A stretch of DNA of 32,000 nt, taken from NCBI RefSeq assembly GCF_000014265.1, contig NC_008312.1, forward strand, positions 3,630,001 to 3,662,000. The letters run 5' to 3'. The notes beneath the pieces were generated by a model. The model was given only the letters and a program-made list of their open reading frames with translations, was not told the DNA's origin and made no database searches. This document shows positions 10,297-29,860 of this stretch, piece after piece. The DNA comes from Trichodesmium erythraeum IMS101. Lineage in GTDB: Bacteria; Cyanobacteriota; Cyanobacteriia; Cyanobacteriales; Microcoleaceae. The first letter of the stretch is position 1. Each line of letters starts with the position of its first letter. The position numbers were made by a program, and so were the translations under genes.

Positions 10297-10533
10297 AAAT
10301 GAGTGACAGAGTTTTTTTTTCCATTTTCCTTATTCGGCTAGAGTTGCCGAAAATTGAATCTTAGGCTAGAGTTCCATTTCTAGTTGGGCTGGTCGCTCAT
10401 TTAAACTCGGGTTTTATTTGAGTATTCCCACTTTTTTACTAGAATTACTGATCACTTAATTGAGATGCACTCCATTTGTTCACATTTTGCGCAAATATTA
10501 TCCAGGAGTTACCAAGGGAGAACCCAGAAACTA

Positions 10534-10620
10534 TTTTTTTAAATCAATTTTTTTAAATCAATTTTTTTAAATCAATTTTTTTAAATCAATTTTTTTAAAT
10601 CAATTTTTTTAAATCAATTT
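10534..10620. repeat. 14-bp tandem repeat (AAATCAATTTTTTT), about 6 copies
   Basis: Units start at 10541, 10555, 10569, 10583, 10597 and 10611 and are perfectly identical. The array ends 10 nt from the stop codon of the heterocyclase gene. Confidence 0.95.
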
Positions 10621-10630
10621 CCCGGCCTCA

Positions 10631-12940
10631 TTAAAACACCATCGGCATTGAATTCATCTCCTCTTCTTGCAACGCTGCAGACAACAAACCCATTTTCACC
10701 GGAACATCATATAACCTCCCCTTGCCAAAGCGCGACCAAAAATGACGCAACCCAGGCACAATAACCTTAACTACTTTTAACTCAATATCCGGACGAGTCT
10801 GATCTAATACCAAAGTTTCCATTCCTGCCTCTTGAGCAATTTTCACACAAGTCAAAACATCATCATAAATATCATCGCTCCAAAGCTTAGGATAATCTCC
10901 ATAAACCTTAGCAGGTATTTCTGGATGGGGAGCTAAATAAGGATGACTTTCTAAAGTTGCTGTGGTCATCCATCTCTGGAGCCCTTCCTCCATCTGACTA
11001 ATATCTTGCTGATCCATTCCCAACCCAATTTGATTTACTTCCGTTACTGCTCGCAGAATGGCAATTTTCGGGTCAAAATGCGCTCCAAAACCAGTAATAA
11101 CTCGCTCATATTCTTCATTAACTCGACGAGATACGGCAGTAAAAGCAGGTATCCCTAAATCTGTAGTTAAATCTAATACCCATAACTCCCGCTGATTTTG
11201 TTCATAAAATTCTTGCACTTCCAATAAATAGGGGTCGTCAAAACTTGCTAAATCTACTCCCGGACGCTGCAAAGAATTATACCACCAAATTGCCACACTG
11301 TCGCGCTCAACTAATTCCATAAATCCTTGCAAAATTGCTTCTTCTATGGTATTGCCCGCAGCATTGCCATTGGAATCAGCTACACAAAAATTATGCTTTT
11401 TGGGCAATTTATAAGCATAATAACACCAAGCAGTAGGCAAATATTTGTGGGTCTCCTCCGTCAGTGACCACACTGGAGTCCATTCAATTTCTTGACTGGC
11501 ATCAAAAGGTTGGGGGATCCAATCATGAGCCACTTTAGAATTAGCATTCAATTCCTCCCGGTTAGCATACTGAGTCGGACTAAAATGTAGACATCTTTCT
11601 GGATGAATACCTTGCTTTCCCAATTTGGCTAAAGTTGACTTTTTCCGAGGTTCGTCTCCCTGGAATATTCCCGAATAACGTTCGATCGCTTCACAAAAAC
11701 CACTGGCTTTAGATTGGCGATCGCTCTTACCTTTACCTCCACTTTTATGACGCAGGGAACGACGCAAAGCACCGAGACTTTTCGCAGCACCAAAACTATG
11801 GATAGCACTGTAAGTATGAATTAAAGGATTTTCGGGGTCAGAAACTCGCACCAAAGCACTGACAACTCCTGTAATGGGACTAATCAATTTTTTGTAGCGT
11901 TTGGTTGTTTGGTCGGGAGTGAATGCCCGGTGACCGCCATCTGTGGTAAAATGCTTTTTGCGACTGCTGAGACTGAGAGGATAAGATGACATTTCTTGGA
12001 GTAACTTGGAATCTCCACAAGCTTCACATTGGGGGCGTTTACTCAAAATGTGAGTTGTTGTGGAGAAGTCGGTTTGGTTGAAAGTAACCACTTTTCCAGC
12101 GAGAGTAGTAAACTTTGGCATTTCTACCCCACTTTCTTTGACTATCCATTTCGCAACTTCCGTAGTTATAAGATTAATTCCCGTTGCCAAAGTTGAAGGA
12201 AGGAAAACAGGGGGAGGAGGCAAGCACCCAGTAACATCTCTTTTGCTAGCACTGGAGACAACAGATTTTTCTTTTTGTCGCAAAACTGTGGCTTCCACTT
12301 CCCGATGTCCCCGTAAACGTTGACTTAAGCATTCCCAACATCCTGTATTTTCTGGTTCAAATATGGGACCCAACCACAGGACTCCCCCTACTGGTTTTGC
12401 TAACAACCAAGGTTGGCTAGCTGAGAGGGCGGTTTTATTAATCTCTTTTAATTGTGGTTGGAGGTAGTCGTCGGTGAGAACAACTAATAGTGCCTTGCGG
12501 TCTGATGTGAGTGGGTAGTTTTCCCAAGGTTTAGTTTTGATACCCACTGCTGTTAAACTTTCGATTAATAAATCTGTGGTTGTTTCTCCCACTGAGGCGA
12601 TATAAACCGTATTTTTTTGGAGACAGTCCGAGGCGAATTGGGGTTCGACATTCAGTAATGACCAAAATGCAGCGGCAGGTGGGGGTAGTTCGGGAGTTGC
12701 TTCTGTTAAATAACCTTTAGTTTTGAGGCGGTTAAGAACATATTCTACGTCTTCTGGGTATGCTATTTCTGCTAAAGTTTCACAGATTTCCTCAAAGCTA
12801 TGTTGACCATCTAATAGGGGGATGAGTTGACAGTAGAATTCTCCGGTGAGGGCGTCGGTGGAATTTTCTCCTAGGAGGTAAACGTGCTTGGGTTCGATAA
12901 TTTCGATGTGAAAGTGGGGTTTGATTTGTGGATTTGACAT
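10631..12940 (-). CDS. Cyanobactin heterocyclase (PatD/TruD family; fused E1-like/RRE docking domain + YcaO cyclodehydratase)
   Basis: 769 aa, colinear by eye with PatD as I recall it. Matching blocks include IKPHFHIEIIEPKHVYLLGE, VLTDDYLQPQLKEINK, QPWLLAKPVGGVLWLGPIF, GCWECLSQRLRGHREVEA, RPQCEACGD, HFTTDGGHRAFTPDQT, SGKGKSDRQSKASGFCEAIERYSGIFQGDEPR, SNGNAAGNTIEEAILQGFMELVERDS, DQTRPDIELKVVKVIVPGLR and RLYDVPVKMG. Confidence 0.93.
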   Translation of the reverse strand: MSNPQIKPHFHIEIIEPKHVYLLGENSTDALTGEFYCQLIPLLDGQHSFEEICETLAEIAYPEDVEYVLNRLKTKGYLTEATPELPPPAAAFWSLLNVEPQFASDCLQKNTVYIASVGETTTDLLIESLTAVGIKTKPWENYPLTSDRKALLVVLTDDYLQPQLKEINKTALSASQPWLLAKPVGGVLWLGPIFEPENTGCWECLSQRLRGHREVEATVLRQKEKSVVSSASKRDVTGCLPPPPVFLPSTLATGINLITTEVAKWIVKESGVEMPKFTTLAGKVVTFNQTDFSTTTHILSKRPQCEACGDSKLLQEMSSYPLSLSSRKKHFTTDGGHRAFTPDQTTKRYKKLISPITGVVSALVRVSDPENPLIHTYSAIHSFGAAKSLGALRRSLRHKSGGKGKSDRQSKASGFCEAIERYSGIFQGDEPRKKSTLAKLGKQGIHPERCLHFSPTQYANREELNANSKVAHDWIPQPFDASQEIEWTPVWSLTEETHKYLPTAWCYYAYKLPKKHNFCVADSNGNAAGNTIEEAILQGFMELVERDSVAIWWYNSLQRPGVDLASFDDPYLLEVQEFYEQNQRELWVLDLTTDLGIPAFTAVSRRVNEEYERVITGFGAHFDPKIAILRAVTEVNQIGLGMDQQDISQMEEGLQRWMTTATLESHPYLAPHPEIPAKVYGDYPKLWSDDIYDDVLTCVKIAQEAGMETLVLDQTRPDIELKVVKVIVPGLRHFWSRFGKGRLYDVPVKMGLLSAALQEEEMNSMPMVF

Positions 12941-12965
12941 TATAATTATTTCAGTTAATTATGTG

Positions 12966-12990
12966 GGTTGGGTTGAGGAAGGAAACCCAA
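12966..12990. repeat. Dispersed hairpin repeat GGTTGGGTTGAGGAAGGAAACCCAAC
   Basis: gttgggtt and aacccaac form an 8-bp stem. The same element, with 2 differences, occurs at 19902-19929. This copy lies in the 5' leader of the heterocyclase gene. Confidence 0.65.
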
Positions 12991-13109
12991 CAAATACAAA
13001 TTGTTAAGTTACCTCAAATCACCAGAAGGCCAGCACTATAATATTTTATGTAGTGTCTAGACCAATTGTCAGTATATAATCATAACATTGAGTCATAAAT
13101 TATATACAC

Positions 13110-13172
13110 AGGACTTAAGCAAATTGATCTATGGACGCCATTTGTTATAGGACGTGCTCGTGGGTAAGTCCT
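13110..13172. repeat. MITE-like element with GGACTTA...TAAGTCC terminal inverted repeats
   Basis: aggacttaagc (13110-13120) pairs with gggtaagtcct (13162-13172). It belongs to the same family as 27260-27373 and 29310-29398. Confidence 0.5.
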
Positions 13173-13249
13173 GATACAAAAACTAATCCGCAAAAATGGA
13201 GAACAGTTTTTGAGAAATGCTACAAGTCCTGAATATAATAATCTCATAG

Positions 13250-13588
13250 TCAGGATGAACGGTTGATTCTAATTAACTTATTTTTTAAGCTTTCAGTAGT
13301 TGAAATTGTCCCATGAATTCGGTTGGCAACTCCAACAAAGTTAGAATCTTCTGTACAAACAATTATTCCTTCATGGTTGGAATTAGCAATATGTAGTTGA
13401 ATGAAATCACGACGATTTCGTGTCAAAACAGCTCGTCCGTTATTAACAGCAAATGCTAATACTTCTTCATCGGGGATTTGTAAATTTGCTTTACCTGCCG
13501 CTTGAGCAGTTAAAACATTATAACCCATATTTGTTAAATTTTTGACGACAGGCAATGGAAAGTTTTCATCTGCATAAAGTAGTACCAT
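13250..13588 (-). CDS. DUF5615-family PIN-like putative toxin
   Basis: 112 aa. MVLLYADENFPLPVVKNLTNMGYNVLT...AVLTRNRRDF matches the (F/L)-x-ADEN...G-x-x-V... pattern of DUF5615/Mut7-C-like PIN proteins. Its start lies 1 nt from the stop of the upstream DUF433 gene, suggesting translational coupling. Confidence 0.75.
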   Translation of the reverse strand: MVLLYADENFPLPVVKNLTNMGYNVLTAQAAGKANLQIPDEEVLAFAVNNGRAVLTRNRRDFIQLHIANSNHEGIIVCTEDSNFVGVANRIHGTISTTESLKNKLIRINRSS

Positions 13589-13589
13589 C

Positions 13590-13964
13590 TTATTCTACTT
13601 CTGTTTCCATGATGACTTCATTCTCTCGAATAGCACTTTCAATCTCTTCTAGATGTCTTTCTGCATAAACCCAAGCATTGACTAGATCAACAGCACTGAG
13701 GGTAGGAAATGCTGCCAAAATCTCAGGGTCGCTCATTCCTAAGCGGCGATCGCTCACCAATGACCAAACTGGAATCCGAGTTTTCCCAACACAAGCATCA
13801 CCACCACACACATTGGGCGTTTTGTTAATTCCTTGGGAAGCAAGAGTTTGAGTTGCTAGTAGTCTCAAAGCTACATTTATAGCTTCATCGAGGGAACAAT
13901 ATTGACCACTTTGTACTTGATTACGAATAAATTTTTCTAGTTCTGGGTCGAGAGTTATTTCCAT
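13590..13964 (-). CDS. Putative antitoxin: N-terminal ParD-like ribbon-helix-helix segment fused to a DUF433 domain
   Basis: ITLDPELEKFIRNQVQSGQYCSLDEAINVALRLL resembles the ParD/RHH antitoxin N-terminus. GGDACVGKTRIPVWSLV...AFPTLSAVDLVNAWVY is the DUF433 core. The track start at 14006 is TTG and overlaps an IS fragment, so I prefer the ATG at 13964 (MEITLD...). Confidence 0.7.
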   Translation of the reverse strand: MEITLDPELEKFIRNQVQSGQYCSLDEAINVALRLLATQTLASQGINKTPNVCGGDACVGKTRIPVWSLVSDRRLGMSDPEILAAFPTLSAVDLVNAWVYAERHLEEIESAIRENEVIMETEVE

Positions 13965-13965
13965 A

Positions 13966-14130
13966 ATCTTATTATATTTCAAACTGAAAATTCCCAGGGG
14001 TATCAAATAAATGGCCAGAAAACCTGGAAACTTTCAAGTTGGGCACTCCTACCATATTACCACCTGTTGCAATAATTGTGAATTCAAACTGATAGATGGG
14101 CAAATACAGGGAAGTTTTTCTCTAGATCAT
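13966..14130 (+). mobile_element. 5' fragment (upstream sequence plus first ~40 codons) of an IS200-like Y1 transposase, second copy
   Basis: cttattatatttc...ataaATGgccagaaaacctggaaactttcaagttgggcactcctaccatattaccacctgttgcaataattgtgaattcaaactgat is clearly homologous at nucleotide level to 16103-16270. It encodes MARKPGNFQVGHSYHITTCCNNCEFKLI and then loses the frame. Confidence 0.75.
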
Positions 14131-14173
14131 CATCAGACTTGAAACAGAGCGATCGCTCCCTTCTACTTCTCTA

Positions 14174-14323
14174 CAGATAGTGCAGAAAATTTGGGTGCAA
14201 CATGACGGTACTGAAGATGCGATCGCTGACCAATTAGTCGAAAAAGGAGTACCTGCAGAAGATATTGTTTTGGCCTATCATCCACCATTACTCAGAAAAT
14301 ATACAGAATTTGCCGAAAGTTAA
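14174..14323 (+). pseudogene. XisI (fdxN-element excision factor family) C-terminal fragment
   Basis: My translation ends at the TAA at 14321-14323: ...QIVQKIWVQHDGTEDAIADQLVEKGVPAEDIVLAYHPPLLRKYTEFAES*. This matches the conserved XisI C-terminus (KIWIQ-x-DGTE-x-GIA..L...G-x-P...IVLAFHPP). There is no start codon or N-terminal half. Confidence 0.7.
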
Positions 14324-14540
14324 TTAAAAGTACTTCTGTTGGTTAGTTTATACAACATGTACTATACTGTACTTAGTTTGACTTTGTCTAGTCCAAGTCG
14401 ATGTCAAACATTTCTTTATTGCCAATACTTGTCTGTTGGCCAAAGACTCGTTGGCCATAAAAGCTATTGATTGACTTTTCCCCGTGGGGTAGTAATGAAA
14501 AAAGTAATTAATATAGACAACTTTTGCAACTTTATAAGTT

Positions 14541-14578
14541 AAAAATTAAAAAAAATTAAAAGTTAAAAGTTAAAACTC
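14541..14578. repeat. STRR-like heptamer array (AAAAGTT / AAAAATT)
   Basis: aaaaatt ... aaaaatt aaaagtt aaaagtt aaaactc ends 2 nt before the oxidase ATG at 14581. Confidence 0.6.
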
Positions 14579-14580
14579 AA

Positions 14581-16008
14581 ATGACATCCTCTCTATTCAC
14601 TCTATCCCTAACTTCATTAGTCACCCTGATCCATGAAGATGACAATATCATATTACAAGCTCCCATCCGCAGTCCACTCAAAAAAACTACTCCAACTCGC
14701 CAAGTCAAATTTGAACATCCCTCCTCAGGTTTAATATCGGCATTAAATCATCTCAAGTCTTCCCAGAAAACCTACCCTCAACTTAAAGCATTAGTGGTAG
14801 CTGCTGATGGCGAGGAAGCGGGAGAAAGATTTGATGTAGAATTGGAAAAACTCATAAATACAGGTTGGGTTTCCCATTCCCTTTACCCCCTGGCAACAGT
14901 TATCCCAATAGTGGAAAAAAACTATCGCTTTAAGTCTCCAGAAATTGCACAACTACAAGGAAAATTTACCTTGTCCCGTTTTGCCTATTTACACCAAAGC
15001 CAAGGGAAAACCATCATAGAATGTCCCCTGTCTACTAGTCAAATAATTGCATTAGACTGGCGATGTGGTGCCTTGCTTGCCAAATTATCTCAACCACAAA
15101 CCCCTAGCAGTTTGAGCGCAGATATTCCCGATATTACTGAAGAAATTGCCCAAAAATTCCTGGCTTTGTTGATGGCAACTCAAATGTTATCCCCAGAAAC
15201 CGAACCCACCCCGCTGATGTATTGGGAATTTCACGACTTGCTATTTCACAGTCGCTCTCGGATAGGAAGACACAACAACCCAACTGGAGGCACAATGAGA
15301 TTTTTTGGCAAAACTGAACCTTTGCCTATTGTCAAACCACCAATGAGTGACAAAGTTATTAAACTGGTGCAACCTAACTTAGAATATTTGACTCAAATTG
15401 ACATTCCCTTGACAAAAGCATTGGAGTTACGCCAGTCTATTCGGGAGTACGATGAACAACCAATACGGTTGCAACAATTGGGAAAATTGTTATATTGTTG
15501 CGCTAGGATTAAAAAAATAGAGACTATGGAAACAGAGGAATTCGGTACACTGCATTTAAACTATCGTCCTTATCCTTGTGGCGGTGCAATTTATGAGTTG
15601 GAAATTTATCCAGTGGTGAACCGTTGTCAAGGTTTGGCAGCAGGGGTCTATCACTATCAACCTTTGGAGCATTGTCTGTATCAAATTTCGGCTCATGAAA
15701 CACAAGTGGAGGCATTGATAGAGGATGCTTACAAGTCTAGTGGTGAACAAGATCAACCTCAAGTTTTGTTGGTAATAACAGCTAGGTTTGGGCGAATATT
15801 TTGGAAGTATGAATCAATTGCTTATGCTTTGATATTGAAGCACGTTGGTGTATTGTATCAAACTTTTTATTTAATGGCAACGGGGATGCACTTAGCTCCC
15901 TGTGCTTTGGGGATAGGAGATGCTGATAATTTTGCTCAGATAACAGGGTTAGATTATTATGAAGAGTCTTCTGTTGGGGAGTTTCTTTTGGGTTCGGTGA
16001 GGAACTAG
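14581..16008 (+). CDS. Stand-alone cyanobactin azoline oxidase (SagB-type FMN dehydrogenase, ThcOx-like)
   Basis: 475 aa. The C-terminal ~220 aa is a nitroreductase/SagB-type domain (RQSIREYDEQPI...RPYPCGGAIYELEIYPVV...GVYHYQPLEH...LLVITARFGRIFWKYESIAYALILKHVGVLYQTFYLMATGMHLAPCALG). The N-terminal ~230 aa is an extra region, as in stand-alone cyanobactin oxidases. Confidence 0.85.
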   Translation: MTSSLFTLSLTSLVTLIHEDDNIILQAPIRSPLKKTTPTRQVKFEHPSSGLISALNHLKSSQKTYPQLKALVVAADGEEAGERFDVELEKLINTGWVSHSLYPLATVIPIVEKNYRFKSPEIAQLQGKFTLSRFAYLHQSQGKTIIECPLSTSQIIALDWRCGALLAKLSQPQTPSSLSADIPDITEEIAQKFLALLMATQMLSPETEPTPLMYWEFHDLLFHSRSRIGRHNNPTGGTMRFFGKTEPLPIVKPPMSDKVIKLVQPNLEYLTQIDIPLTKALELRQSIREYDEQPIRLQQLGKLLYCCARIKKIETMETEEFGTLHLNYRPYPCGGAIYELEIYPVVNRCQGLAAGVYHYQPLEHCLYQISAHETQVEALIEDAYKSSGEQDQPQVLLVITARFGRIFWKYESIAYALILKHVGVLYQTFYLMATGMHLAPCALGIGDADNFAQITGLDYYEESSVGEFLLGSVRN

Positions 16009-16144
16009 TTATTACGGCGCTACCCCGTTTTTTCGGTAAAAATTTAGTTTCCGGAGATATCTAATAAGAATGTAGAGCACCGAATATATGGAGAGTTATT
16101 TTCTAATTATATTTCCCACTCCAAATACCCAAATGTATAAATAA

Positions 16145-16931
16145 ATGGCTAGAAAACCTCGAAACTTTCAAACTGGATATTCCTACCACATTACCACCCG
16201 TTGCAATAATCGTGAATTTAAACTGATCCGACGCGAATGCAGGGAAGTTTTTCTCTATGCCATCAAGAAAGCTATTAAGAAGTACAACTTCAAACTGTAC
16301 GCTCTCTGTATTATGTCTAATCACGTCCATTATCTTATAGAACCCGCCCAACCTGAAGATTTAGCTAAAATTATGCATTTTCTCAACTGGTATACGGCTA
16401 TGTGCTTTAACCGAATGTTGAAGCGCACTGGACATTTTTTATTGGGAAAAACGTTATTTTGCTGATGGTTTTCCTCCAGGCGATGGGGAGCGAGCTATAA
16501 ATACTCTTCGATATATCCATGGAAATCCCAAAGCTGCCAAAATACGCGGGGGGTTTTTCTACGACTTTAGTAATTATGGTAGTTACGAACGTTTGACTGA
16601 TGATGGTCTCACGGAGTGGCATCCAGCTTTTTTGAAATTAGCCAATACTTTGGAAGGGTGTGCCCAGAAGTATAAGGGGTTTTGCAACAAATACAAGCCA
16701 AAACAAAAAACTCCCAAAAAGTCCCACTGGGGAAGTAGGCTTTTAGGGGGTATAACTCTCAATTTTGAAAAGCGATCGTCTCAAAAGACAAAAAAATCAT
16801 CGACTTCCTTTGACTTTCCCCCGTGCCAGGTACCCCCGTGCCAGGTAACCGAAAAGCTAGAAGTAGCAAAGGTAGTAAGTCAATTTGTTGAAGCAAACAG
16901 ACCGCCGAAGCAAGAGGGAAAGGATTTTTGA
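16145..16931 (+). pseudogene. IS200-like / REP-associated tyrosine (Y1, HUH) transposase, frameshifted
   Basis: Frame 1 reads MARKPRNFQTGYSYHITTRCNNREF...CIMSNHVHYLIEP (HUH motif H-V-H)...RTGHF. The protein continues in the +1 frame from 16443 as WEKRYFADG...INTLRYIHGNPKAA (catalytic Tyr motif). About 4 extra nt at 16437-16442 break GHF|WEKRY. Confidence 0.8.
16641..16859 (+). repeat. Direct repeat, left copy (3' part of the IS200-like transposase gene)
   Basis: It aligns base for base with 17503-17706. By eye I count 4 mismatches plus a 15-nt internal tandem duplication (cccccgtgccaggta x2) found only in this copy. Confidence 0.9.
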
Positions 16932-16964
16932 CATTTTCTTGAGTTATGTGATACGCTAAAGTTC

Positions 16965-17168
16965 TTACTCGTCGTCTCCGTCGTAAGAACAGCTACAGAG
17001 TCTAGGGTGTAACCCATCACCAGAGGGCCCTGGGCCATTTGCCAATGGGCCATGGCCTTGGTTTCCTTCTGTGAGGTTCTCTTCTCTGAGTTCCTCCAGG
17101 GCAGGTCTAGCAACTAGGGAGCGAAAAACAGGTTGACTTGAGTTGGGCTGGATATTCTTTTTTCCCAT
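16965..17168 (-). CDS. Cyanobactin precursor peptide (PatE-like), single core
   Basis: I verified the translation codon by codon: MGKKNIQPNSSQPVFRSLVARPALEELREENLTEGNQGHGPLANGPGPSGDGLHPRLCSCSYDGDDE. The leader blocks M-x-KKN-x-x-P-x-x-x-x-PV-x-R and L-x-EL-x-EE-x-L resemble PatE/TruE/TenE. The C-terminal SYDG is the macrocyclase signature. A GAGG lies 8 nt upstream of the ATG. Confidence 0.85.
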   Translation of the reverse strand: MGKKNIQPNSSQPVFRSLVARPALEELREENLTEGNQGHGPLANGPGPSGDGLHPRLCSCSYDGDDE

Positions 17169-17200
17169 GGATATTACCTCTGTTTGTTTGGATATAGATA

Positions 17201-17229
17201 ATAGTAATAAAGTTTCTTTTTTCTGTCAA
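17201..17229 (-). promoter_or_regulatory. Sigma70-type promoter candidate for the precursor gene
   Basis: On the minus strand: TTGACA (complement of 17224-17229), exactly 17 nt, then TACTAT (complement of 17201-17206). It sits ~33 nt upstream of the ATG at 17168. Confidence 0.45.
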
Positions 17230-17502
17230 TTATATTTCCCCCAGTTTGATTAATTTTTGAAACTTTTCTCTACCTGTCAGACTATTGAACGCAGGCGGGG
17301 GCGAGCGTGATTACACCAAAATCTGTTGAAACCCTCGCGCGGAGCGACCATAGATAAATTAGATTTTGAGCCCAGGCATTACTTAATGGCATTACTATTA
17401 GCAAGAGATCAGTTAACTTCTCCTCAAATAGACTACAACTTTGTAGGGAGGTTGCTTTGTAGGAACGTTCCCAGATAACTGATACAATTAACAACTATAT
17501 TC

Positions 17503-17706
17503 GCCAATACTTTGGAAGGGTGTGCCCAGAAGTATAAGGGGTTTTGCAACAAATACAAGCCAAAACAAAAAACTCCCAAAAACTCCCACTGGGGAAGTAG
17601 GCTTTTAGGGGGTATAACTCTCAATTTTGAAAAGCGATCGTCTCAAAAGACAAAAAAATTATCGACTTCTTTTTACTTTCCCCCGTGCCAGGTAACCGAA
17701 AAGCTA
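17503..17706 (+). repeat. Direct repeat, right copy (orphan 3' fragment of a second IS200-like transposase copy)
   Basis: See 16641-16859. It encodes ...NTLEGCAQKYKGFCNKYKPKQKTPKNSHWGSRLLGGITLNFEKRSSQKTKK... with no upstream catalytic part. Confidence 0.9.
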
Positions 17707-17835
17707 CTATTAGCAAGACCTTAGAGTGACCATTATGTACAAAAATAAAAATAATTTTAAATTATTGGTAAAAATTTCAGCACTTACTATGGTAAGTTAT
17801 ATACGATTTATAAAAAAACAGGAGTTAAACATTGG

Positions 17836-17880
17836 TAACTAATGACTAATAACTGATAACTAATAATTAATAACTGATAA
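17836..17880. repeat. STRR heptamer array (TAACTAA/TAACTGA, 6 units)
   Basis: taactaa tgactaa taactga taactaa taattaa taactga taa ends 3 nt before the PatA-like ATG at 17884. Confidence 0.85.
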
Positions 17881-17883
17881 AAG

Positions 17884-19884
17884 ATGCCCGAAATTTCTTC
17901 AATTCCTGGAATCAAACAACTATGGGCAAAAACCAAAGGTAACTCTGAGGTTTGCGTGGCAGTGCTTGACGGTCTAGTTGACCTGAAACATCCTTGTTTT
18001 GAGGGAGCTAATTTGACTCAACTACCAAGCTTAGTTCAAGGTCAAGCTACTCCTCAAAGCGAGATGTCTCTCCATGGGACTCATGTGGCCAGTATAATTT
18101 TTGGTCAGCCAAACTCAAGCGTCTCTGGTATTGCTCCCCACTGTCGAGGTTTAATAGTTCCCATATTCTCAGACTATCATCGCCGAACTTCTCAGTTGAA
18201 TTTAGCACGGGCCATCGAACAAGCGGTGAATGCTGGGGCTAATATTATTAATATTAGTGGGGGTGAACTGACAGATTATGGTGAAGCTGAAGACTGGCTT
18301 AACCGTGCGGTGAGTTTATGCCAAAATAATAATGTTTTGCTTGTTGCTGCAGCGGGTAATGACGGCTGTGAATGTTTGCATGTTCCGGCAGCACTACCCA
18401 CTGTTCTAGCAGCAGGAGCCATGGGAGAAAACGGACAGCCCCTAGATTATAGTAACTGGGGCGAAAATTATCAGACTCAAGGTATTCTGGCTCTGGGAGA
18501 AAATATTTTAGGTGCTGAACCAGGAGGTGGTACAAGACAGTTGAGTGGGACCAGCTTTGCCACCCCAGTAGTGTCAGGAGTTGCTGCATTATTGATGAGT
18601 TTGCAGTTGCAAAGAGAGGAAAAACCAGACTCACAAAAAGTGCGTACTGCCTTACTCAAGACAGCTGTTCCATGTCATGCTCAAGAAAAACGCCGTTGTT
18701 TAGTTGGCCAGATGAATATTTCAGGTGCCATTGCACATATAACAGGAGAAACTATGTCAGAATCAGAACAAGATAATAGTAATGGTATTGAAGCTAGCTG
18801 TGGTTGTGAGTCAACTCCAGAAGCTAGCTTGCCAGGTTCAGTTGGCCTAGAAAATAGTCTACCGACTCCCGCCGACAATGGTGTGGTAGCTGCAGGGGTC
18901 GTTGAAGCTGGCGTCACGGCTTCACAACCATTATCATCAACTAATACATCTAATACATCTAATAATCAAATTTCTGCTATGCCAAATAATAGTCAAAGTA
19001 ACAATAGTAATGGAATCACACCCAGTCAACCTCCTCAAGACGTGACAAATATAGTCTACGTTATTGGTACATTGGGTTATGACTTTGGAACTGAAGCACG
19101 GCGGGACTCATTTAAACAGTTGATGCCAGCAGTTACTATTGGAAATACCCAAATTCCAGCTAACCCTTATGATGCTCGTCAAATGGTGGATTATTTGGCG
19201 AATAATCTTTCGGAAGCTAAATCTTTGATTTGGACTTTGAATATGGAATTGACTCCTATCTATGCTATTGAAGCTGTGGGGTCATTTGCACGGGAAGTTT
19301 ATGAAGCTTTGCAAGAGTTACTTGCAGGGGAAGTAGAAGCGGAAGATGCTGAGAGATATATTGAGCGGGTGAGTATTCCGGGAAAATTAACTGGGCGTAC
19401 AGTTAAGTTGTTCTCAGGCCAAGTGGTGCCTGTGATTGAACCTGTTAGTCCTCGTGGTATTTATGGCTGGCGGGTGAATACATTGGTTGGTTCTGCTTTG
19501 GAAGCAGTTCGTGGAGAACAAGCAGAGGCTGACGATGAGCAAATGCGTCGGAGTTTGAGCAGTTTCCTAAATCGAGTTTATTACGATCTACGCAATTTAG
19601 GGCAGACTTCTCAAGACCGAGCTTTAAATTTTGCAGCTACTAATGCTTTCCAAGCGGCTCAAACTTTCTCTACAGCAGTGGCAGCAGGCATGGAGTTGGA
19701 TAGTATTGCTGTGACCAAGAGTCCATTCTGTCGGATGGATAGTGATTGTTGGGACGTGCAGTTGAAGTTTTTCGATCCAGAAAATAACCGTCGGGCGAAG
19801 AAGGTGTTCCGGTTTACCATTGATGTTAGCGATTTCATTCCGGTAACTTTGGGCGAAGTTCGTTCTTGGTCTTCTCCTTATTAG
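17884..19884 (+). CDS. Cyanobactin N-terminal protease (PatA family: subtilisin domain + PatA/PatG C-terminal domain)
   Basis: 666 aa. The triad contexts are AVLDG, HGTHVASIIFGQ and SGTSFATPVVSGVAALL. It is nearly colinear with PatA as I recall it (GIAPHCRGLIVPIFSD, VNAGANIINISGGE, NNVLLVAAAGNDGCECLHVPAALP). An Asn/Ser-rich linker precedes the C-terminal domain GTLGYDFGTEARRDSFKQLMP...FRFTIDVSDFIPVTLGEVRSWSS. Confidence 0.92.
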   Translation: MPEISSIPGIKQLWAKTKGNSEVCVAVLDGLVDLKHPCFEGANLTQLPSLVQGQATPQSEMSLHGTHVASIIFGQPNSSVSGIAPHCRGLIVPIFSDYHRRTSQLNLARAIEQAVNAGANIINISGGELTDYGEAEDWLNRAVSLCQNNNVLLVAAAGNDGCECLHVPAALPTVLAAGAMGENGQPLDYSNWGENYQTQGILALGENILGAEPGGGTRQLSGTSFATPVVSGVAALLMSLQLQREEKPDSQKVRTALLKTAVPCHAQEKRRCLVGQMNISGAIAHITGETMSESEQDNSNGIEASCGCESTPEASLPGSVGLENSLPTPADNGVVAAGVVEAGVTASQPLSSTNTSNTSNNQISAMPNNSQSNNSNGITPSQPPQDVTNIVYVIGTLGYDFGTEARRDSFKQLMPAVTIGNTQIPANPYDARQMVDYLANNLSEAKSLIWTLNMELTPIYAIEAVGSFAREVYEALQELLAGEVEAEDAERYIERVSIPGKLTGRTVKLFSGQVVPVIEPVSPRGIYGWRVNTLVGSALEAVRGEQAEADDEQMRRSLSSFLNRVYYDLRNLGQTSQDRALNFAATNAFQAAQTFSTAVAAGMELDSIAVTKSPFCRMDSDCWDVQLKFFDPENNRRAKKVFRFTIDVSDFIPVTLGEVRSWSSPY

Positions 19885-19901
19885 AGGAGCGGCTAGGTGT
19901 A

Positions 19902-19929
19902 GGTTGGGTTGAGGAAAGGAAACTCAACC
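19902..19929. repeat. Dispersed hairpin repeat GGTTGGGTTGAGGAAAGGAAACTCAAC (possible terminator of the PatA-like gene)
   Basis: It is the same element as 12966-12990 and lies 18 nt downstream of the 19884 stop. Confidence 0.55.
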
Positions 19930-20033
19930 AGCCATCAGCAGCTGAGTTAAACTGATTTAATAGGATATAGTTTAAGACATAGTTAGTAGACTTTCCAAGT
20001 AGACTTTACTTCTCCGGTTCTCTACTACGAACT

Positions 20034-20072
20034 TAAAAACAAATAGCAACGATTTTGGTTATCAATCGTTGC
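20034..20072 (-). terminator. Intrinsic terminator candidate for the minus-strand PatB/PatC-like unit
   Basis: A perfect 9-bp stem (gcaacgatt at 20046-20054, aatcgttgc at 20064-20072) encloses a 9-nt loop. On the minus strand TATTTGTTTTT follows. It lies ~42 nt past the stop at 20114. Confidence 0.5.
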
Positions 20073-20113
20073 CTAAATTCACAAAATCCTTGGCGGGCTA
20101 CTGAGGCTCCTCC

Positions 20114-20332
20114 TTATGCCCAAATGCGCCCGCGACGAGGGAAAGGAGGTTTGCCTTCCCGCTTTTGGTCTTGAAACATTCCCTTCCAACGTCCATAATC
20201 TTCTAGACCTGTTGCCAATATAGTGTTCTCTTCTATTTTAAGCTCAGGTTGTTGGACTGGTTGTGATGGTGGAGAAGTTATTTCTGACTTAGCTTGAGGT
20301 GTTTTTTTGACATCTTTTTTCGACATGATCAT
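20114..20332 (-). CDS. Small Pro/Lys-rich protein in the PatC position (tentative PatC/TenC/TruC-like)
   Basis: 72-aa ORF. A perfect AAGGAGG lies 6 nt upstream of the second ATG at 20326 (MSKKDVKK...), which is probably the true start. It is co-oriented with and downstream of the PatB-like ORF, as in patB-patC. I assign the family from position and size only, not from remembered sequence. Confidence 0.45.
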   Translation of the reverse strand: MIMSKKDVKKTPQAKSEITSPPSQPVQQPELKIEENTILATGLEDYGRWKGMFQDQKREGKPPFPRRGRIWA

Positions 20333-20413
20333 CCTCCTTTTGACATTTCCAGGGATTGAAACACCCTGTATTTTAAATTAGTGTAACATTTAACCGACTC
20401 AAAACTATACGCT

Positions 20414-20608
20414 TTAAATCTGTACGGCATCACCAGTTAAAGTGATTGCTGCTACCTGCAAAGCTCGTAACATGACATTATGAATGCTGTTGCACACCCA
20501 GTGTGCAGTATATCCGCACTGAGGGCATTGAAACTTTTTGTGACCACTTAGTTTTTTGTGGTTCTGATCCCATTCAGGGTAGTATAAGACTCCTTTGAAT
20601 TGGCCATC
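20414..20608 (-). pseudogene. Possible decayed TnpB (IS605 OrfB / IS1341-type) C-terminal fragment
   Basis: My reverse translation has no start codon: DGQFKGVLYYPEWDQNHKKLSGHKKFQCPQCGYTAHWVCNSIHNVMLRALQVAAITLTGDAVQI*. The F-x-CP-x-CG-x-x-x-(HWV)-x-N-x-x-x-N-x-x-x-x-AL block is colinear with the W-x-CP-x-CG...DRD-x-NA-x-x-N zinc-ribbon/RuvC-III end of TnpB, but the DRD is lost. Confidence 0.3.
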
Positions 20609-20671
20609 CTAACCATAAGATATAATCTGAGTTATATGTGGGATAATTATATTGCCAAAGCTAAAGCCTCA

Positions 20672-20887
20672 CTACAAACAAAAATAGTTACCACCCCAAC
20701 CAGAAGACATGATCTGATTATATGTGGGATAATTATAGGGTGCCGGATCGTTATAGTTAGCTCCGTGCATCAAATCCATACGAATTGCTACTAGGTCTTG
20801 ACCCCGGCCGTGCTCCACATCTACTGCTAGATGAGGAGAAATAATATCGGGTCTTTTTACCGGAGCTGCTTGTTTAGGTAATCTCAT
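20672..20887 (-). CDS. Small protein in the PatB position (tentative PatB/AcyB/McaB-like); N-terminus resembles a cyanobactin leader
   Basis: 71 aa with an ATG start: MRLPKQAAPVKRPDIISPHLAVDVEHGRGQDLVAIRMDLMHGANYNDPAPYNYPTYNQIMSSGWGGNYFCL. It is transcribed divergently from the PatG-like gene and is followed by the PatC-like ORF on the same strand. I assign the family from context. Confidence 0.45.
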   Translation of the reverse strand: MRLPKQAAPVKRPDIISPHLAVDVEHGRGQDLVAIRMDLMHGANYNDPAPYNYPTYNQIMSSGWGGNYFCL

Positions 20888-21036
20888 ATTTTTGACTAGA
20901 CTATATATTCAATTAATTCAGTCTATTATACCTTATTAATCATAATAGAACAAACTTGACAATTCTTAATTGGTTGCCTATTTGCCAACTTTAGGTGTAA
21001 ACTTAGTCTGGAAATGTAATTTATATTGAATGAATT

Positions 21037-23145
21037 GTGCCAGACTTTGCAGATATTCCCGGACTCACCAAATTATGGACTCACACGAAAGGAGACCCTC
21101 GCATCACAGTTGCCCTCCTCGATGGAACTGCTGATATAGAACGTGGTTGCTTTCAGGGGGCCAATGTTACGAAAATCAATTCTTATTGGCAAGAAGCAAT
21201 AGAGCTTGACCCCAAAGATATAGACACCTACCGAGAAATTCAGAACTCTGATGAAAAAAGTGAAGTTAAACAGGCAAAACTGAAAGAAGCTATCCCAGAC
21301 GAAATAACTTTACAAATTCTCGGAGCAGCTTTCCACGCGACTCATGTCTTTAGTAACATTTTCGGACAACCAGGAACTCCCGTGGAAGGTATTGCCTACA
21401 AATGTCGGGGCATTAATATTCCTCTTGGTTATGGTAATGACTATTATATCGACCCCATAAACTTAGCTCGTGGCATTAACCTAGCAGTAGACTTGGGAGC
21501 AAATATTATTCACTGTGCTGCCTGTCGCCCTAACCAAACTGGTATTGGTCACGAAATTCTAGAAAAGGCAGTACGTCAAGCTCAGGAAAATAATGTTTTA
21601 ATTGTGGCTCCCACAGGCAATAATAAAGGTGAATGTTGGTGTCTCCCTGCTATTTTGCCTGGAGTCATGTCCGTAGGAGCAATGAAGGATAATGGTCAGG
21701 TATTCAAATTTAGTAACTGGGGCGGACAATATCAACAACAAGGTATTATTGCTCCGGGGGAAAATATTCTCGGTGCTCAACCAGGAACAGAAGAAACTGT
21801 CCGCCAAAAAGGTACCAGTTGTGCAGCGCCAATGGTGACAGCTATTTCGGCATTGCTGATGAGTTTGCAGTTGCAGCAAGGAGCATCTCCAGATGCAGAA
21901 GCAGTGAGGGCAGCTTTAACAAACAGTGCTATTCCCTGCACTTTAGAAGATACCGAAGAAATCGAACGTTGTATGTTGGGTAAACTGAATGTTGCCGGAG
22001 CTTATCAACTTTTGACAGGAAAGCAGTTAGAAGCAGTGGGAGTTTCTGCGGCTGAAGCGACCTCAGAAGAAGATGTAATATTGGAAGATAGTGGGGTTGA
22101 TGTGGGGGAAGTTATTGTAGATGAAACTTCAGTAGTTCCTGCCCAGGAAAATGCTCCCATATCTTTTTCTCTGCCAGTGGGAGAAAATAGAGAGAGTCTG
22201 ACAAATGTGGCAACAAATATCACTGCTGCATCGGGAGTAGAGCAAAACAATATCAAACCCACAAAAGTTTCTCAAACTGCTCATGGTGTTACCCCGAGTG
22301 CTCGCTCCAATATGATTTATGCTTTGGGTACCTTGGGTTATGATTTTGGTACTGAGGCACGACGAGACTCATTTAAACAGTTAATGCCAGCAGTGATATT
22401 AAACGGGGTACAAGTTCCAGCTAATCCCTATGATGGTCGTCAGATGGCTGATTATCTGGATGCTAATTTATATGAAGGGAAATCTTTAATCTGGACTTTC
22501 AATATAGAATTAACTCCTATTTATGCCCTCAGACCTGTAGGTGCATTTGCGGACGATATTTATGAAACTCTGCAAAATATGTTAGCAGGAGAGGTGGAGG
22601 CAGAAGACCATGAAGACTACATCGACAGGGTGAGTATTACCGGGAGGTTAACTGACCAAACAGTAAAGTTGTTTTCTGGGCAAACCCTGCCGGTGGTGAA
22701 AATAAACAGCCCCCGGGGAATGTATGGTTGGACGGTGAATAGCCTAATAGATAATGCTTTGGAGTCAGTTAGGACAGAACAAACAGAGGCAGAGGAGGAG
22801 GCAATACGGAAATCTCTGAGAAGTTTTTTGCAACGGGTTTATTATGATCTGCGCAACCTGGGTCAGGCAGATCGCGATCGCGCCATCAACTTTGCAGCGA
22901 CAAATGCTTTCCAAGCAACGGCGACTATTTCTGAAGCAGTAGCTATTGGCATGGAGTTGCACAGTATAGAGGTAGAGAAGAGTCCTTTCTGTCGTTACAA
23001 TAGTAACTGTTGGGATGTTAAGTTGAAATTTTTTAACCCAGATAATAGTAGGAGAGCCAAGAGAGTTTATCGTTTTACTATTGATGTGTCAGATTTAATG
23101 CCTGTAACTTTGGGTAAAGTGCGGTCTTGGTCTGTGCCTAAGTGA
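21037..23145 (+). CDS. Cyanobactin C-terminal protease/macrocyclase (PatG family, no oxidase domain) + PatA/PatG C-terminal domain
   Basis: 702 aa with a GTG start. The triad contexts are ALLDG, HATHVFSNIFGQ and KGTSCAAPMVTAISALLMSLQ. The Asp-to-His spacing is ~35 aa longer than in the PatA-like paralog (insert ~21172-21321, SYWQEAIELDPKDIDTYREIQNSDEKSEVKQAKLKEAIPDEITLQIL). This fits the macrocyclase-specific capping insertion. The C-terminal domain runs GTLGYDFGTEARRDSFKQLMP...YRFTIDVSDLMPVTLGKVRSWS. Confidence 0.9.
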   Translation: MPDFADIPGLTKLWTHTKGDPRITVALLDGTADIERGCFQGANVTKINSYWQEAIELDPKDIDTYREIQNSDEKSEVKQAKLKEAIPDEITLQILGAAFHATHVFSNIFGQPGTPVEGIAYKCRGINIPLGYGNDYYIDPINLARGINLAVDLGANIIHCAACRPNQTGIGHEILEKAVRQAQENNVLIVAPTGNNKGECWCLPAILPGVMSVGAMKDNGQVFKFSNWGGQYQQQGIIAPGENILGAQPGTEETVRQKGTSCAAPMVTAISALLMSLQLQQGASPDAEAVRAALTNSAIPCTLEDTEEIERCMLGKLNVAGAYQLLTGKQLEAVGVSAAEATSEEDVILEDSGVDVGEVIVDETSVVPAQENAPISFSLPVGENRESLTNVATNITAASGVEQNNIKPTKVSQTAHGVTPSARSNMIYALGTLGYDFGTEARRDSFKQLMPAVILNGVQVPANPYDGRQMADYLDANLYEGKSLIWTFNIELTPIYALRPVGAFADDIYETLQNMLAGEVEAEDHEDYIDRVSITGRLTDQTVKLFSGQTLPVVKINSPRGMYGWTVNSLIDNALESVRTEQTEAEEEAIRKSLRSFLQRVYYDLRNLGQADRDRAINFAATNAFQATATISEAVAIGMELHSIEVEKSPFCRYNSNCWDVKLKFFNPDNSRRAKRVYRFTIDVSDLMPVTLGKVRSWSVPK

Positions 23146-25775: not shown

Positions 25776-26340
25776 AGCAAATAAAACACAGGTCTGAATA
25801 AAAATTATCTGGCTTGTTTCCCAGTGACCAAATTGTTAAGATGACAGGACTGACCCACGGATATGAAATTATACACCATTTCTTGTCGGGGTTAACGGCC
25901 GAGTGCTCCGCAACATGAAAGCCCCTATCATAATTGTGGTCATGGTCATAGGTAAATCTTAAATGATATAGATATTACTAATGCTTGAGAGTAGTAAAAA
26001 TAAGCCTTAAAAATTTGCATGAAACTGACAATAATATAACTATTACTTATCTTGAGAAGCAAATTTTTTGTAATCATCTTGAGCATCTGATAGTAACTTT
26101 TCAGCAGAAAGAATTCGTTCTTTAATTATTGGTGTGAAACCAGCTATTTTTTCCTTTCCACTGCGAACTTAAATAATAACCTCTTAAATGTCACTTATTC
26201 TAGAGACTCCACTACTCCTTGTCAACCTCACTAAATTCCAAATATCTCCACCACCCAATTCTGTAGACCGTTGTGCTAACCATTGAGAATTAATAACCTG
26301 AGAACGAGGTACAACTTCAAACAAAAAATATTCCCATAAA

Positions 26341-29785: not shown

Positions 29786-29860
29786 ATATCCTGCCTACTG
29801 TTAAAATGTATAGTTTTATTTTCCAAAATGAAGCAAAACTCAATAGGAATAGATCAATTC

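What the first reader, a model, noticed from the sequence alone, without database searches (positions are those of the whole stretch)
10631..23145. Complete but fragmented cyanobactin (patellamide-class RiPP) gene cluster between aspS and lysS
Seen in sequence: a PatD-type E1-like/YcaO heterocyclase (10631-12940, -), a SagB-type oxidase (14581-16008, +) and a PatE-like precursor (16965-17168, -). There are also two subtilisin-fold proteases carrying the shared PatA/PatG C-terminal domain (17884-19884 and 21037-23145, +) and two small ORFs in the PatB-then-PatC order (20887-20114, -). The canonical pat/tru/ten clusters are co-directional operons. Here the genes lie on both strands in at least five transcription units. 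A toxin-antitoxin pair and several transposase or excision-gene remnants separate them. No PatF-type prenyltransferase ORF is visible. Despite this debris every biosynthetic ORF is intact, which suggests the pathway is still under selection.
Basis: partly seen in the sequence, partly recalled or inferred. Interest (0 to 1): 0.75.

Follow-up and report, generated by a model that had tools for sequence, protein, structure and literature searches.

The report
Known trichamide (tri) cyanobactin gene cluster

Summary
These are the PatD-type heterocyclase, a stand-alone ThcOx-type oxidase, a 67-aa precursor, a PatA protease, PatC and PatB, and a PatG macrocyclase without an oxidase domain. No PatF is present, not even as a remnant.

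The five main proteins are letter-for-letter those of Trichodesmium erythraeum IMS101. The precursor carries GDGLHPRLCSC, the published core of trichamide. Two reviews describe this tri cluster as 12.5 kb with 11 ORFs, bidirectional, with a separate oxidase, no F gene, and bordered by tRNA-synthetase genes. The organism belongs to the Oscillatoriales, not the Nostocales.

Verdict: observation confirmed, already known, low interest.

One side result may be new. The frameshifted "transposase remnant" next to the precursor gene belongs to a single clade of Y1/HUH genes. In all 33 cyanobactin-bearing metagenome contigs, that clade lies among cyanobactin genes. Where enough contig is present, its order is F, Y1, E, usually tail-to-tail with the precursor gene at about 34 bp. 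Its core shows dN/dS of about 0.06. It is therefore probably not random debris.

The parts
10631..12940 (-). PatD-type cyclodehydratase (N-terminal winged-helix/RRE, E1-like domain, YcaO domain), 769 aa. It is identical to ABG51575.1 of T. erythraeum IMS101.
   Evidence: Family scores. It covers MusD, LynD and TruD full length in the PDB at 1020-1056 bits. Exact-sequence look-up.
13250..14006 (-). Type II toxin-antitoxin pair. The antitoxin is DUF433 with a ParD-like N-terminus (13590-14006; gene callers start it at 13964). The toxin is DUF5615 (13250-13588). A 55-aa ORF with no family match lies at 13080-13247.
   Evidence: The DUF433 gene sits next to D at about 90% nucleotide identity in Okeania (L008) and Dapis (L009).
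14005..14132 (+). Orphan copy of the first ~43 codons of the Y1_Tnp gene. It forms a direct repeat with 16139-16265 (85-88% identity). The two copies bracket the XisI remnant and the oxidase gene.
   Evidence: Repeat families D4 and D7. tblastn E = 8e-9.
14180..14323 (+). XisI C-terminal remnant of 47 aa, matching profile positions 66-109 of 110.
   Evidence: PF08869 at 65.6 bits. Also called.
14581..16008 (+). Stand-alone FMN-dependent azoline oxidase of the ThcOx/CyaGox type, 475 aa. It is identical to ABG51579.1.
   Evidence: PDB entries 5LQ4 and 8PZ5 match at 440 bits over residues 40-473. Exact look-up.
16145..16931 (+). Y1/HUH (IS200- or RAYT-like) gene, disabled only by a 4-nt insertion that shifts the frame at about 16439. 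Otherwise it is collinear with intact 254-255-aa homologues. Its 3' end lies 33 bp from the stop codon of the precursor gene, tail to tail.
   Evidence: An intact relative at 97% identity is P0168. Clade analysis.
16965..17168 (-). Precursor peptide of 67 aa: MGKKNIQPNSSQPVFRSLVARPALEELREENLTEGNQGHGPLANGPGPS-GDGLHPRLCSC-SYDGDDE. It has a leader, one core (residues 50-60) and a C-terminal SYDG recognition motif.
   Evidence: The core equals published trichamide. The exact sequence is named as a T. erythraeum RiPP.
17499..17716 (+). Partial duplicate of the 3' part of the Y1 gene (97% identical to 16637-16835). The precursor gene therefore sits between two direct repeats.
   Evidence: Repeat families D1 and D6. 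tblastn.
17884..19884 (+). PatA-type N-terminal protease of 666 aa: a subtilisin domain carrying the motifs AVLDG (Asp), HGTHV (His) and GTSFATP (Ser), followed by PatG_D and PatG_C domains. It is identical to ABG51582.1.
   Evidence: PagA and PatA protease structures match at 403-444 bits. Exact look-up.
20114..20332 (-). PatC/TenC/TruC-family small protein of 72 aa.
   Evidence: TIGR04447 at 50.3 bits, cut-off 30.
20672..20887 (-). PatB/AcyB/McaB-family small protein of 71 aa.
   Evidence: TIGR04220 at 119.9 bits, cut-off 55.
21037..23145 (+). PatG-type macrocyclase of 702 aa with no oxidase domain. It has a subtilisin domain with the macrocyclase insertion, then PatG_D and PatG_C domains. 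It is identical to ABG51585.1.
   Evidence: It aligns to the PatG macrocyclase structures 4AKS and 4H6X over residues 7-342, including the inserted segment and the motifs LLDG, HATHV and GTSCAAP. Exact look-up.
10533..10620 (.). 14-bp tandem repeat (ATTTTTTTAAATCA, 6.3 copies). It abuts the left end of the DNA shared with related clusters, at about 10625. Its copy number differs by one unit from strain GBRTRLIN201.
8104..9891 (+). aspS (aspartate-tRNA ligase), the left flank.
24024..25592 (-). lysS (lysine-tRNA ligase), the right flank.

Best explanation
The region is the tri (trichamide) cyanobactin biosynthetic gene cluster of Trichodesmium erythraeum, strain IMS101 or a near-identical strain.

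**How it works.** The steps below are inferred from the characterised Pat, Tru, Lyn and Thc homologues, with the published product structure as the end point.
1. The 67-aa precursor is translated.
2. Its leader (including LEELREENL) docks on the RRE/winged-helix domain of the heterocyclase. The YcaO domain then converts the two core cysteines into thiazolines, using ATP.
3. The PatA-type protease cuts in front of the core, after GPGPS.
4. The PatG-type macrocyclase recognises the C-terminal SYDG motif and cuts after the last thiazoline. It then joins the core ends into an 11-residue ring.
5. The separate ThcOx-type FMN oxidase turns the thiazolines into thiazoles.

The product is cyclo-GDGLHPRLCSC with two thiazoles (trichamide, 1099 Da). 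PatB and PatC have no assigned role. There is no prenyltransferase, and the product is not prenylated.

The genes lie in six blocks of alternating orientation. Pieces of a Y1/HUH gene, an XisI remnant and a toxin-antitoxin pair are interspersed among them.
For: - **Families:** every ORF scores far above the curated cut-offs.
- **Solved structures:** the heterocyclase matches MusD, LynD and TruD. The oxidase matches CyaGox/ThcOx. The proteases match PatA/PagA and the PatG macrocyclase, including its insertion and the catalytic motifs.
- **Identity:** all five main proteins are exact matches to T. erythraeum IMS101 or GBRTRLIN201 entries on a 7,750,108-bp contig. DNA identity to a T. erythraeum assembly is 99.99-100% over 22 kb.
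- **Product:** precursor residues 50-60 are GDGLHPRLCSC. This is the trichamide sequence tabulated in PMC2854353.
- **Published description:** PMC2854353 and PMC4663559 give 12.5 kb, 11 ORFs, a bidirectional order, one precursor with one core, oxidase and protease on separate genes, tRNA-synthetase genes at the borders, and the only pathway without an F gene. Each point matches the window.
Against: Nothing contradicts the identification. The limits are these:
- The primary paper (Sudek et al. 2006, PMC1489667) is not in the held library. The published description therefore comes from two reviews.
- The order of the enzymatic steps and the exact N-terminal cut site are inferred from homologues and from the published product. 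They were not tested here.
- The N-terminal recognition sequence (GPGPS) is not the canonical G(L/V)E(A/P)S.
Confidence: 0.97

Rival explanations
1. One reading: a previously undescribed, unusually fragmented cyanobactin cluster in a Nostocales genome, notable because split architectures are unknown for characterised clusters.
For: The gene content and the split layout are real.
Against: The proteins are exact matches to T. erythraeum IMS101, which is in the Oscillatoriales. The core equals trichamide. The bidirectional tri layout is in print, and so are the bidirectional acy and sph layouts.
Confidence: 0.01
2. The cluster is a decaying, silent remnant. Mobile-element damage has uncoupled the genes and no product is made.
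For: The Y1 gene is frameshifted and XisI is a stump. The orthologous locus in Dapis sp. BLCC M229 has a truncated oxidase, a truncated Y1 gene and a truncated DUF433 gene, and no A or G gene within 10 kb.
Against: All seven biosynthetic ORFs are full length compared with solved homologues. They are identical in independent T. erythraeum assemblies. The reviews report that trichamide was purified from IMS101 cultures.
Confidence: 0.03
3. This is a sub-hypothesis that is compatible with the best explanation. The 12.6-kb block was acquired horizontally and inserted between aspS and lysS in the T. erythraeum lineage.
For: - DNA shared with Okeania, Dapis, Xenococcaceae and other Trichodesmium MAGs stops within a few bases of the D stop codon (about 10625). 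On the other side it stops 67 bp past the G stop codon (about 23212).
- In Trichodesmium MAG_R02, a protein-kinase-like gene follows D, not aspS.
- In Okeania and Dapis, the cluster is not near aspS.
- The published authors also proposed transfer on the basis of the tRNA-synthetase flanks.
Against: No empty aspS-lysS junction was found. The aspS neighbourhoods in Okeania SIO1I7, Dapis M229 and Trichodesmium MO_231.B1 share nothing with the window on either side. Synteny here is too scrambled to define an insertion. G+C in the cluster (0.39-0.44) is close to that of the flanking genes.
Confidence: 0.35

Closest known systems
tri (trichamide) cluster of Trichodesmium erythraeum IMS101 (Sudek et al. 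2006, as summarised in PMC2854353 and PMC4663559)
   Same: Everything that could be compared matches: organism, exact protein sequences, core peptide GDGLHPRLCSC, a span of about 12.5 kb, bidirectional order, one precursor with one core, a separate oxidase, no F gene and tRNA-synthetase flanks.
   Different: Nothing detectable. The window differs from strain GBRTRLIN201 by one 14-bp repeat unit and one base over 22 kb.
thc (cyanothecamide) pathway of Cyanothece sp. PCC 7425, with the stand-alone oxidase ThcOx/CyaGox
   Same: The oxidase is a separate three-domain protein (HTH_57, ThcOx, nitroreductase). It scores 440 bits against PDB 5LQ4 and 8PZ5 over nearly its full length.
   Different: It is a different organism with different precursors and products. 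I did not fetch the thc locus, so its gene order was not compared.
pat, ten and tru clusters (Prochloron, Nostoc spongiaeforme)
   Same: They share the enzyme set A, B, C, D, E and G, and the same chemistry: heterocyclisation, two proteolytic steps, macrocyclisation and oxidation.
   Different: In pat and ten, all genes are co-directional, the oxidase is fused to PatG, an F gene is present and the precursor carries several cores. Here there are six orientation blocks, a separate oxidase, no F gene and one core.
acy (anacyclamide), sph (sphaerocyclamide) and art (arthrospiramide) clusters
   Same: The acy and sph layouts are bidirectional. A 'transposase' lies between E and F in sph and art, and sph also carries XisI and Uma2 genes. 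The same F-Y1-E order appears in the metagenome loci.
   Different: The acy cluster lacks both a D gene and an oxidase. The sph table shows only a prenyltransferase as tailoring enzyme. In tri, the F gene is missing and the Y1 gene is frameshifted.

Membership tests
Cyanobactin RiPP pathway | PatA-type N-terminal subtilisin protease with the shared C-terminal PatG_D and PatG_C domains | tested here: met
   TIGR03895 at 973.5 bits (cut-off 421). Peptidase_S8, PatG_D and PatG_C domains present. PatA and PagA structures match at 403-444 bits. Asp, His and Ser motifs are present in the sequence.
Cyanobactin RiPP pathway | PatG-type macrocyclase: a subtilisin domain with the macrocyclase-specific insertion and a catalytic triad | tested here: met
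   TIGR03895 at 938.9 bits. It aligns to the PatG macrocyclase structures 4AKS and 4H6X across the inserted helices, with LLDG, HATHV and GTSCAAP conserved.
Cyanobactin RiPP pathway | E-type precursor with a conserved leader, a hypervariable core and a C-terminal (A/S)YDG recognition sequence | tested here: met
   TIGR03678 at 68.1 bits (cut-off 39.6) and PF19155. The sequence ends in ...CSC-SYDGDDE. Okeania and Dapis orthologues keep the leader and SYDGDD but differ in the core.
Cyanobactin RiPP pathway (azole subclass) | PatD-type fused E1-like/RRE and YcaO cyclodehydratase | tested here: met
   PF02624 at 339 bits over the full profile, PF21084 at 115 bits, TIGR03882 at 139 bits. Full-length match to LynD, TruD and MusD.
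Cyanobactin RiPP pathway (azole subclass) | FMN-dependent azoline oxidase, either fused to G or stand-alone | tested here: met
   It is stand-alone. HTH_57, ThcOx and Nitroreductase domains present, with TIGR03605 at 214 bits. CyaGox 5LQ4 matches at 440 bits. The G protein has no oxidase domain.
Cyanobactin RiPP pathway | PatF/LynF/TruF-family protein (present in most pathways but not defining) | tested here: not met
   tblastn of a bona fide F protein (L010, TIGR04445 at 383 bits) against the window gave a best E of 4.5. The literature states that tri is the exception lacking F.
tri/trichamide cluster specifically | The precursor core equals the trichamide sequence and the proteins equal those of T. 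erythraeum IMS101 | tested here: met
   The core GDGLHPRLCSC matches Table 2 of PMC2854353. Exact-sequence look-up returns ABG51575.1, ABG51579.1, ABG51582.1, ABG51585.1 and WP_044136730.1, all from T. erythraeum.
tri/trichamide cluster specifically | The product (an 11-residue N-C macrocycle with two thiazoles) is made | not testable with these tools
   Reported in the literature only.
IS200/IS605 TnpA or RAYT (Y1 HUH transposases), for the 'transposase remnant' at 16145-16931 | HUH motif plus a catalytic tyrosine in an intact ORF, with scores above the family cut-offs | tested here: inconclusive
   Pfam Y1_Tnp is above its cut-off (61-69 bits against 23). The intact L010 homologue is below both NCBIfam cut-offs: RAYT at 65.4 against 80, and IS200 at 31.7 against 55. 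The HVH and RYIHGNP motifs are invariant across 18 family members. In the window, a 4-nt insertion separates the HUH part from the tyrosine part.

The most novel reading that the evidence does not exclude
The Y1/HUH 'transposase' next to the precursor gene may not be debris. It may be a selected accessory gene of cyanobactin clusters that acts on the precursor-gene cassette, for example by promoting its duplication or exchange, or by controlling its expression.

**Shown here.**
- All 33 cyanobactin-linked copies from metagenomes, plus the window copy, form one NJ clade with no outsider.
- Where enough of the contig is present, the gene usually sits between F and E. In 23 of the 28 loci with a convergent precursor gene, the stops are 2-66 bp apart, mostly 31-36 bp.
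- The core has dN/dS of about 0.055.
- Copies of its 3' end accompany extra precursor genes.

**Not shown.** Any activity, or any effect on the precursors. In IMS101 itself the gene is frameshifted.
Probability: 0.2. Interest if true: 0.55.

Novelty: already known. Interest (0 to 1): 0.1.

Why it matters
The finding as given matters little. The cluster, its split layout, its missing F gene, its flanks and its product were published in 2006 and appear in standard cyanobactin reviews.

The side observation has more value. A gene usually drawn as an incidental 'transposase between E and F' appears to be a conserved, purifying-selected companion of precursor genes across many cyanobactin clusters. 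If that holds, it offers a testable lead on how cyanobactin precursor cassettes multiply and diversify. It also means that tools which discard such 'transposases' when drawing cluster borders may be discarding a real cluster gene.

Tried and rejected
- **Primary papers.** The trichamide paper (PMC1489667), Donia & Schmidt 2011 (PMC3119926), Gu et al. 2018 (PMC6463883) and Leikoski et al. 2010 (PMC2813007) are not held. I relied on two reviews instead.
- **Literature search for trichamide/triA/triK.** It returned only noise.
- **RNA genes.** Rfam at gathering thresholds and ARAGORN found none in the window.
- **PatF remnant.** None was found.
- **Empty-site test for an insertion.** aspS neighbourhoods in Okeania SIO1I7, Dapis M229 and Trichodesmium MO_231.B1 share no flanking gene with the window, so no empty site could be defined.
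- **Hairpin or terminator in the 33-bp spacer between Y1 and the precursor gene.** The fold is no better than shuffled sequence, z = +1.14.
- **Y1 gene as a generic multi-copy IS.** I considered and rejected this. Relatives outside the clade, found in 45 of the 80 loci, carry no cyanobactin gene, while the cyanobactin-linked copies are monophyletic.
- **Published analysis of the Y1 association.** Searches for cyanobactin with 'transposase' or 'IS200' found only single-cluster remarks for art and sph. This does not prove that it is undescribed.
Full report

Yes. The mechanical ORF list holds every ORF at the coordinates given. Profile searches confirm each assignment far above the curated cut-offs.
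- 10631-12940(-) is a fused winged-helix/RRE, E1-like and YcaO cyclodehydratase.
- 14581-16008(+) is a three-domain ThcOx-type SagB dehydrogenase.
- 16965-17168(-) is a microcyclamide/patellamide-family precursor.
- 17884-19884(+) and 21037-23145(+) are PatA/PatG-family proteases with the shared PatG_D and PatG_C domains.
- 20672-20887(-) is PatB and 20114-20332(-) is PatC.

Comparison with solved structures agrees. The heterocyclase covers MusD, LynD and TruD end to end. The oxidase covers CyaGox/ThcOx. The first protease is closest to the PatA and PagA protease domains. The second aligns to the PatG macrocyclase domain through its characteristic insertion, with Asp, His and Ser motifs intact.

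The toxin-antitoxin pair (DUF433/ParD-like plus DUF5615), the Y1_Tnp pieces and an XisI stump are also real. The flanks are aspS and lysS. No PatF is present even as a remnant: a bona fide F protein from a related locus finds nothing in the window.

**2. What is it?**

The heterocyclase, oxidase, precursor and both proteases are exact, full-length matches to entries of Trichodesmium erythraeum IMS101 and strain GBRTRLIN201, on a 7.75-Mb contig. The window is 99.99-100% identical over 22 kb to a T. erythraeum assembly.

The precursor reads ...GPGPS-GDGLHPRLCSC-SYDGDDE. GDGLHPRLCSC is the sequence tabulated for trichamide, an 11-residue macrocycle with two thiazoles and a mass of 1099.2 Da, from T. 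erythraeum (PMC2854353).

The same review and PMC4663559 describe the tri cluster as follows:
- one precursor gene with one core;
- oxidase and protease on separate genes;
- bordered by tRNA-synthetase genes;
- the only cyanobactin pathway without an F gene.

Each of these points matches the window. This is the published tri cluster.

**3. How does it work?**

The steps are inferred from the characterised Pat, Tru, Lyn and Thc enzymes, to which these proteins are close. The published product structure is the end point.
1. The leader of the precursor binds the RRE of the heterocyclase. The YcaO domain converts the two core cysteines to thiazolines.
2. The PatA-type protease removes the leader.
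3. The PatG-type macrocyclase recognises SYDG, releases the C-terminal tail and closes the ring.
4. The separate FMN oxidase aromatises the thiazolines to thiazoles.

PatB and PatC have no known role. The order of oxidation relative to macrocyclisation, and the cut after GPGPS (which is not the canonical G(L/V)E(A/P)S), are inferences.

**4.
- The gene identifications, the completeness, the lack of F and 'still under selection' are right. The product was isolated from this strain.
- The novelty is not there.
- Other bidirectional cyanobactin clusters (acy, sph) are also in print.
- The suggested comparison with Nostocales is misplaced, because Trichodesmium is in the Oscillatoriales/Microcoleaceae.
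- The strand changes define six blocks rather than five.

**5. Borders and the insertion question**

DNA shared with the orthologous clusters of Okeania sp. SIO3I5, Dapis sp. BLCC M229, a Xenococcaceae MAG and other Trichodesmium MAGs stops at about 10625. That is just past the heterocyclase stop codon, where a 14-bp tandem repeat begins. On the other side it stops at about 23212, which is 67 bp past the macrocyclase stop.

In Trichodesmium MAG_R02, a kinase-like gene follows the same heterocyclase, not aspS. In Okeania and Dapis the cluster is not near aspS. This fits a mobile block.

I could not find an empty aspS-lysS site. The aspS neighbourhoods in three relatives share nothing with the window on either side. 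The insertion idea, which the original authors also raised, stays open.

**6. The 'debris'**

Part of it travels with the cluster. The DUF433 gene sits beside the heterocyclase at about 90% nucleotide identity in Okeania and Dapis.

The Y1_Tnp 'remnant' at 16145-16931 is a whole gene. Its only lesion is a 4-nt insertion. An intact copy at 97% identity exists in marine metagenome assemblies (P0168). The gene ends 33 bp from the stop codon of the precursor gene, tail to tail. The same arrangement is seen with an intact 254-aa homologue in the Xenococcaceae locus and in two unrelated metagenome clusters.

I scanned metagenome contigs with an alignment of the family and obtained 80 loci.
- 33 loci carry cyanobactin genes and 45 do not.
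- Where enough of the contig is present, the usual order is F(-), Y1(+), E(-). In 23 of the 28 loci with a convergent precursor gene, the stops are 2-66 bp apart, mostly 31-36 bp.
- In a neighbour-joining tree of the 195-residue core, the 33 linked copies and the window copy form one clade with no outsider.
- Among pairs whose synonymous divergence is not saturated, the core has a median dN/dS of 0.055. The C-terminal tail is near 0.74.

Partial copies of the 3' end of the Y1 gene accompany additional precursor genes in Okeania and in several metagenome loci. The window has one such copy at 17499-17716, so its single precursor gene lies between 97%-identical direct repeats. A second pair of Y1 5'-end repeats brackets the XisI stump and the oxidase gene. 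Recombination between Y1 copies is thus a plausible cause of the scrambled layout, but this is an inference.

The literature I could read mentions only 'a transposase between E and F' for the art and sph clusters, as an incidental feature. I cannot exclude that papers I could not read treat this more fully.

**7. Verdict**

The finding is already known and of low interest as given. The Y1 association is recorded as a side result that deserves its own follow-up.

Noticed in passing
window 16145-16931; loci L010, L020, L021, L023, L024-L050, L052, L054, L055, L057-L059: The Y1/HUH (RAYT-like, about 255 aa) gene beside the precursor gene belongs to a monophyletic clade found only next to cyanobactin genes. 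The clade holds 33 metagenome loci plus the window. The usual order is F(-), Y1(+), E(-). The spacer between the stops of Y1 and E is mostly about 34 bp, though several loci have longer spacers. Core dN/dS is about 0.055. The 45 relatives outside the clade have no cyanobactin neighbours. In IMS101 the gene has a 4-nt insertion frameshift at about 16439.
   Followed up: partly
window 16637-16835 and 17499-17697; L008 3456-3611 and about 2708-2944; L019 about 3188-3760, 9736-9891 and 11189-11493; extra Y1 3'-end hits in L024, L025, L036, L044, L046, L048, L055, L057, L058: Each extra precursor gene in related clusters is accompanied by a copy of the last 100-300 nt of the Y1 gene. The duplication unit of precursor arrays therefore includes the 3' end of Y1. 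This tail evolves almost neutrally at the protein level (dN/dS about 0.74). In five loci it sits in a different frame from the core, which hints at a constraint on the DNA rather than on the protein.
   Followed up: partly
Spacer after the Y1 stop codon in L020, L024, L025, L028-L031, L033, L036, L048, L057 and others; window 16932-16964: The roughly 34-bp spacer between the Y1 and E stop codons has a recurring sequence (CAyTTTTTGAGGTnnGTGyTAGAAT). It contains an extended -10-like TGnTAGAAT on the Y1 strand, pointing antisense into the precursor gene. The window version is degenerate (GTGATACGCT). No significant hairpin was found in the window spacer (z = +1.14).
   Followed up: no
window 14005-14132 and 16139-16265: Direct repeats of the first ~127 nt of the Y1 gene (85-88% identity) bracket the XisI stump and the oxidase gene. 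The oxidase module may have been moved by recombination between Y1 copies. In the Xenococcaceae locus L010, the oxidase has the opposite orientation relative to Y1.
   Followed up: partly
window 10533-10620: A 14-bp tandem repeat (ATTTTTTTAAATCA, 6.3 copies) lies exactly at the left limit of the DNA shared with related clusters. The window has one unit more than T. erythraeum GBRTRLIN201 (L001). This is the only length difference over 22 kb.
   Followed up: partly
L008 and L019 (Okeania sp. SIO3I5, two contigs): The orthologous cluster (86-95% nucleotide identity for D, Ox, A, B and G) carries at least five precursor genes with different cores. It also carries a further toxin-antitoxin pair (UPF0175/DUF3368) and PDDEXK_2 genes, and it is also bidirectional. 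The split layout is therefore shared by this lineage of clusters, not special to T. erythraeum.
   Followed up: partly
L009 (Dapis sp. BLCC M229) 4277-9415: This is a decayed version of the same cluster. The heterocyclase and one precursor gene are intact. The oxidase is cut to its last 172 aa, Y1 to 61 aa and DUF433 to 107 aa. No A or G protease lies within 10 kb.
   Followed up: no
L011 (contig binned as Actinomycetota bacterium MAG69): This contig carries homologues of PatA (62% identity), PatB (61%), the heterocyclase (59%), the ThcOx-type oxidase (46%) and a second A/G-family protease. It is either a cyanobactin-like cluster outside cyanobacteria or a mis-binned contig.
   Followed up: no
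L007 2312-6316 (Trichodesmium sp. MAG_R02): The heterocyclase is 99% identical to the window's, but the DNA after its stop codon is unrelated and holds a 607-aa kinase-like membrane protein. The cluster, or at least its D gene, sits in another context in a sister Trichodesmium.
   Followed up: no
window 17836-17880 and 26336-26437: Two more tandem repeats. TAACTAA occurs in 6.4 copies immediately upstream of the PatA-type protease start codon. A 50-bp unit occurs twice between the PP2C gene and a 72-aa ORF.
   Followed up: no
window 2700-3780, 7235-8100, 28300-29860: These are long AT-rich stretches (G+C 0.27-0.30) without ORFs of 50 aa or more. No Rfam family or tRNA was found anywhere in the window.
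   Followed up: no
window 30782-32000 (+): An acetyl-CoA synthetase gene (ACAS_N plus AMP-binding domains) runs off the right end of the window.
   Followed up: no
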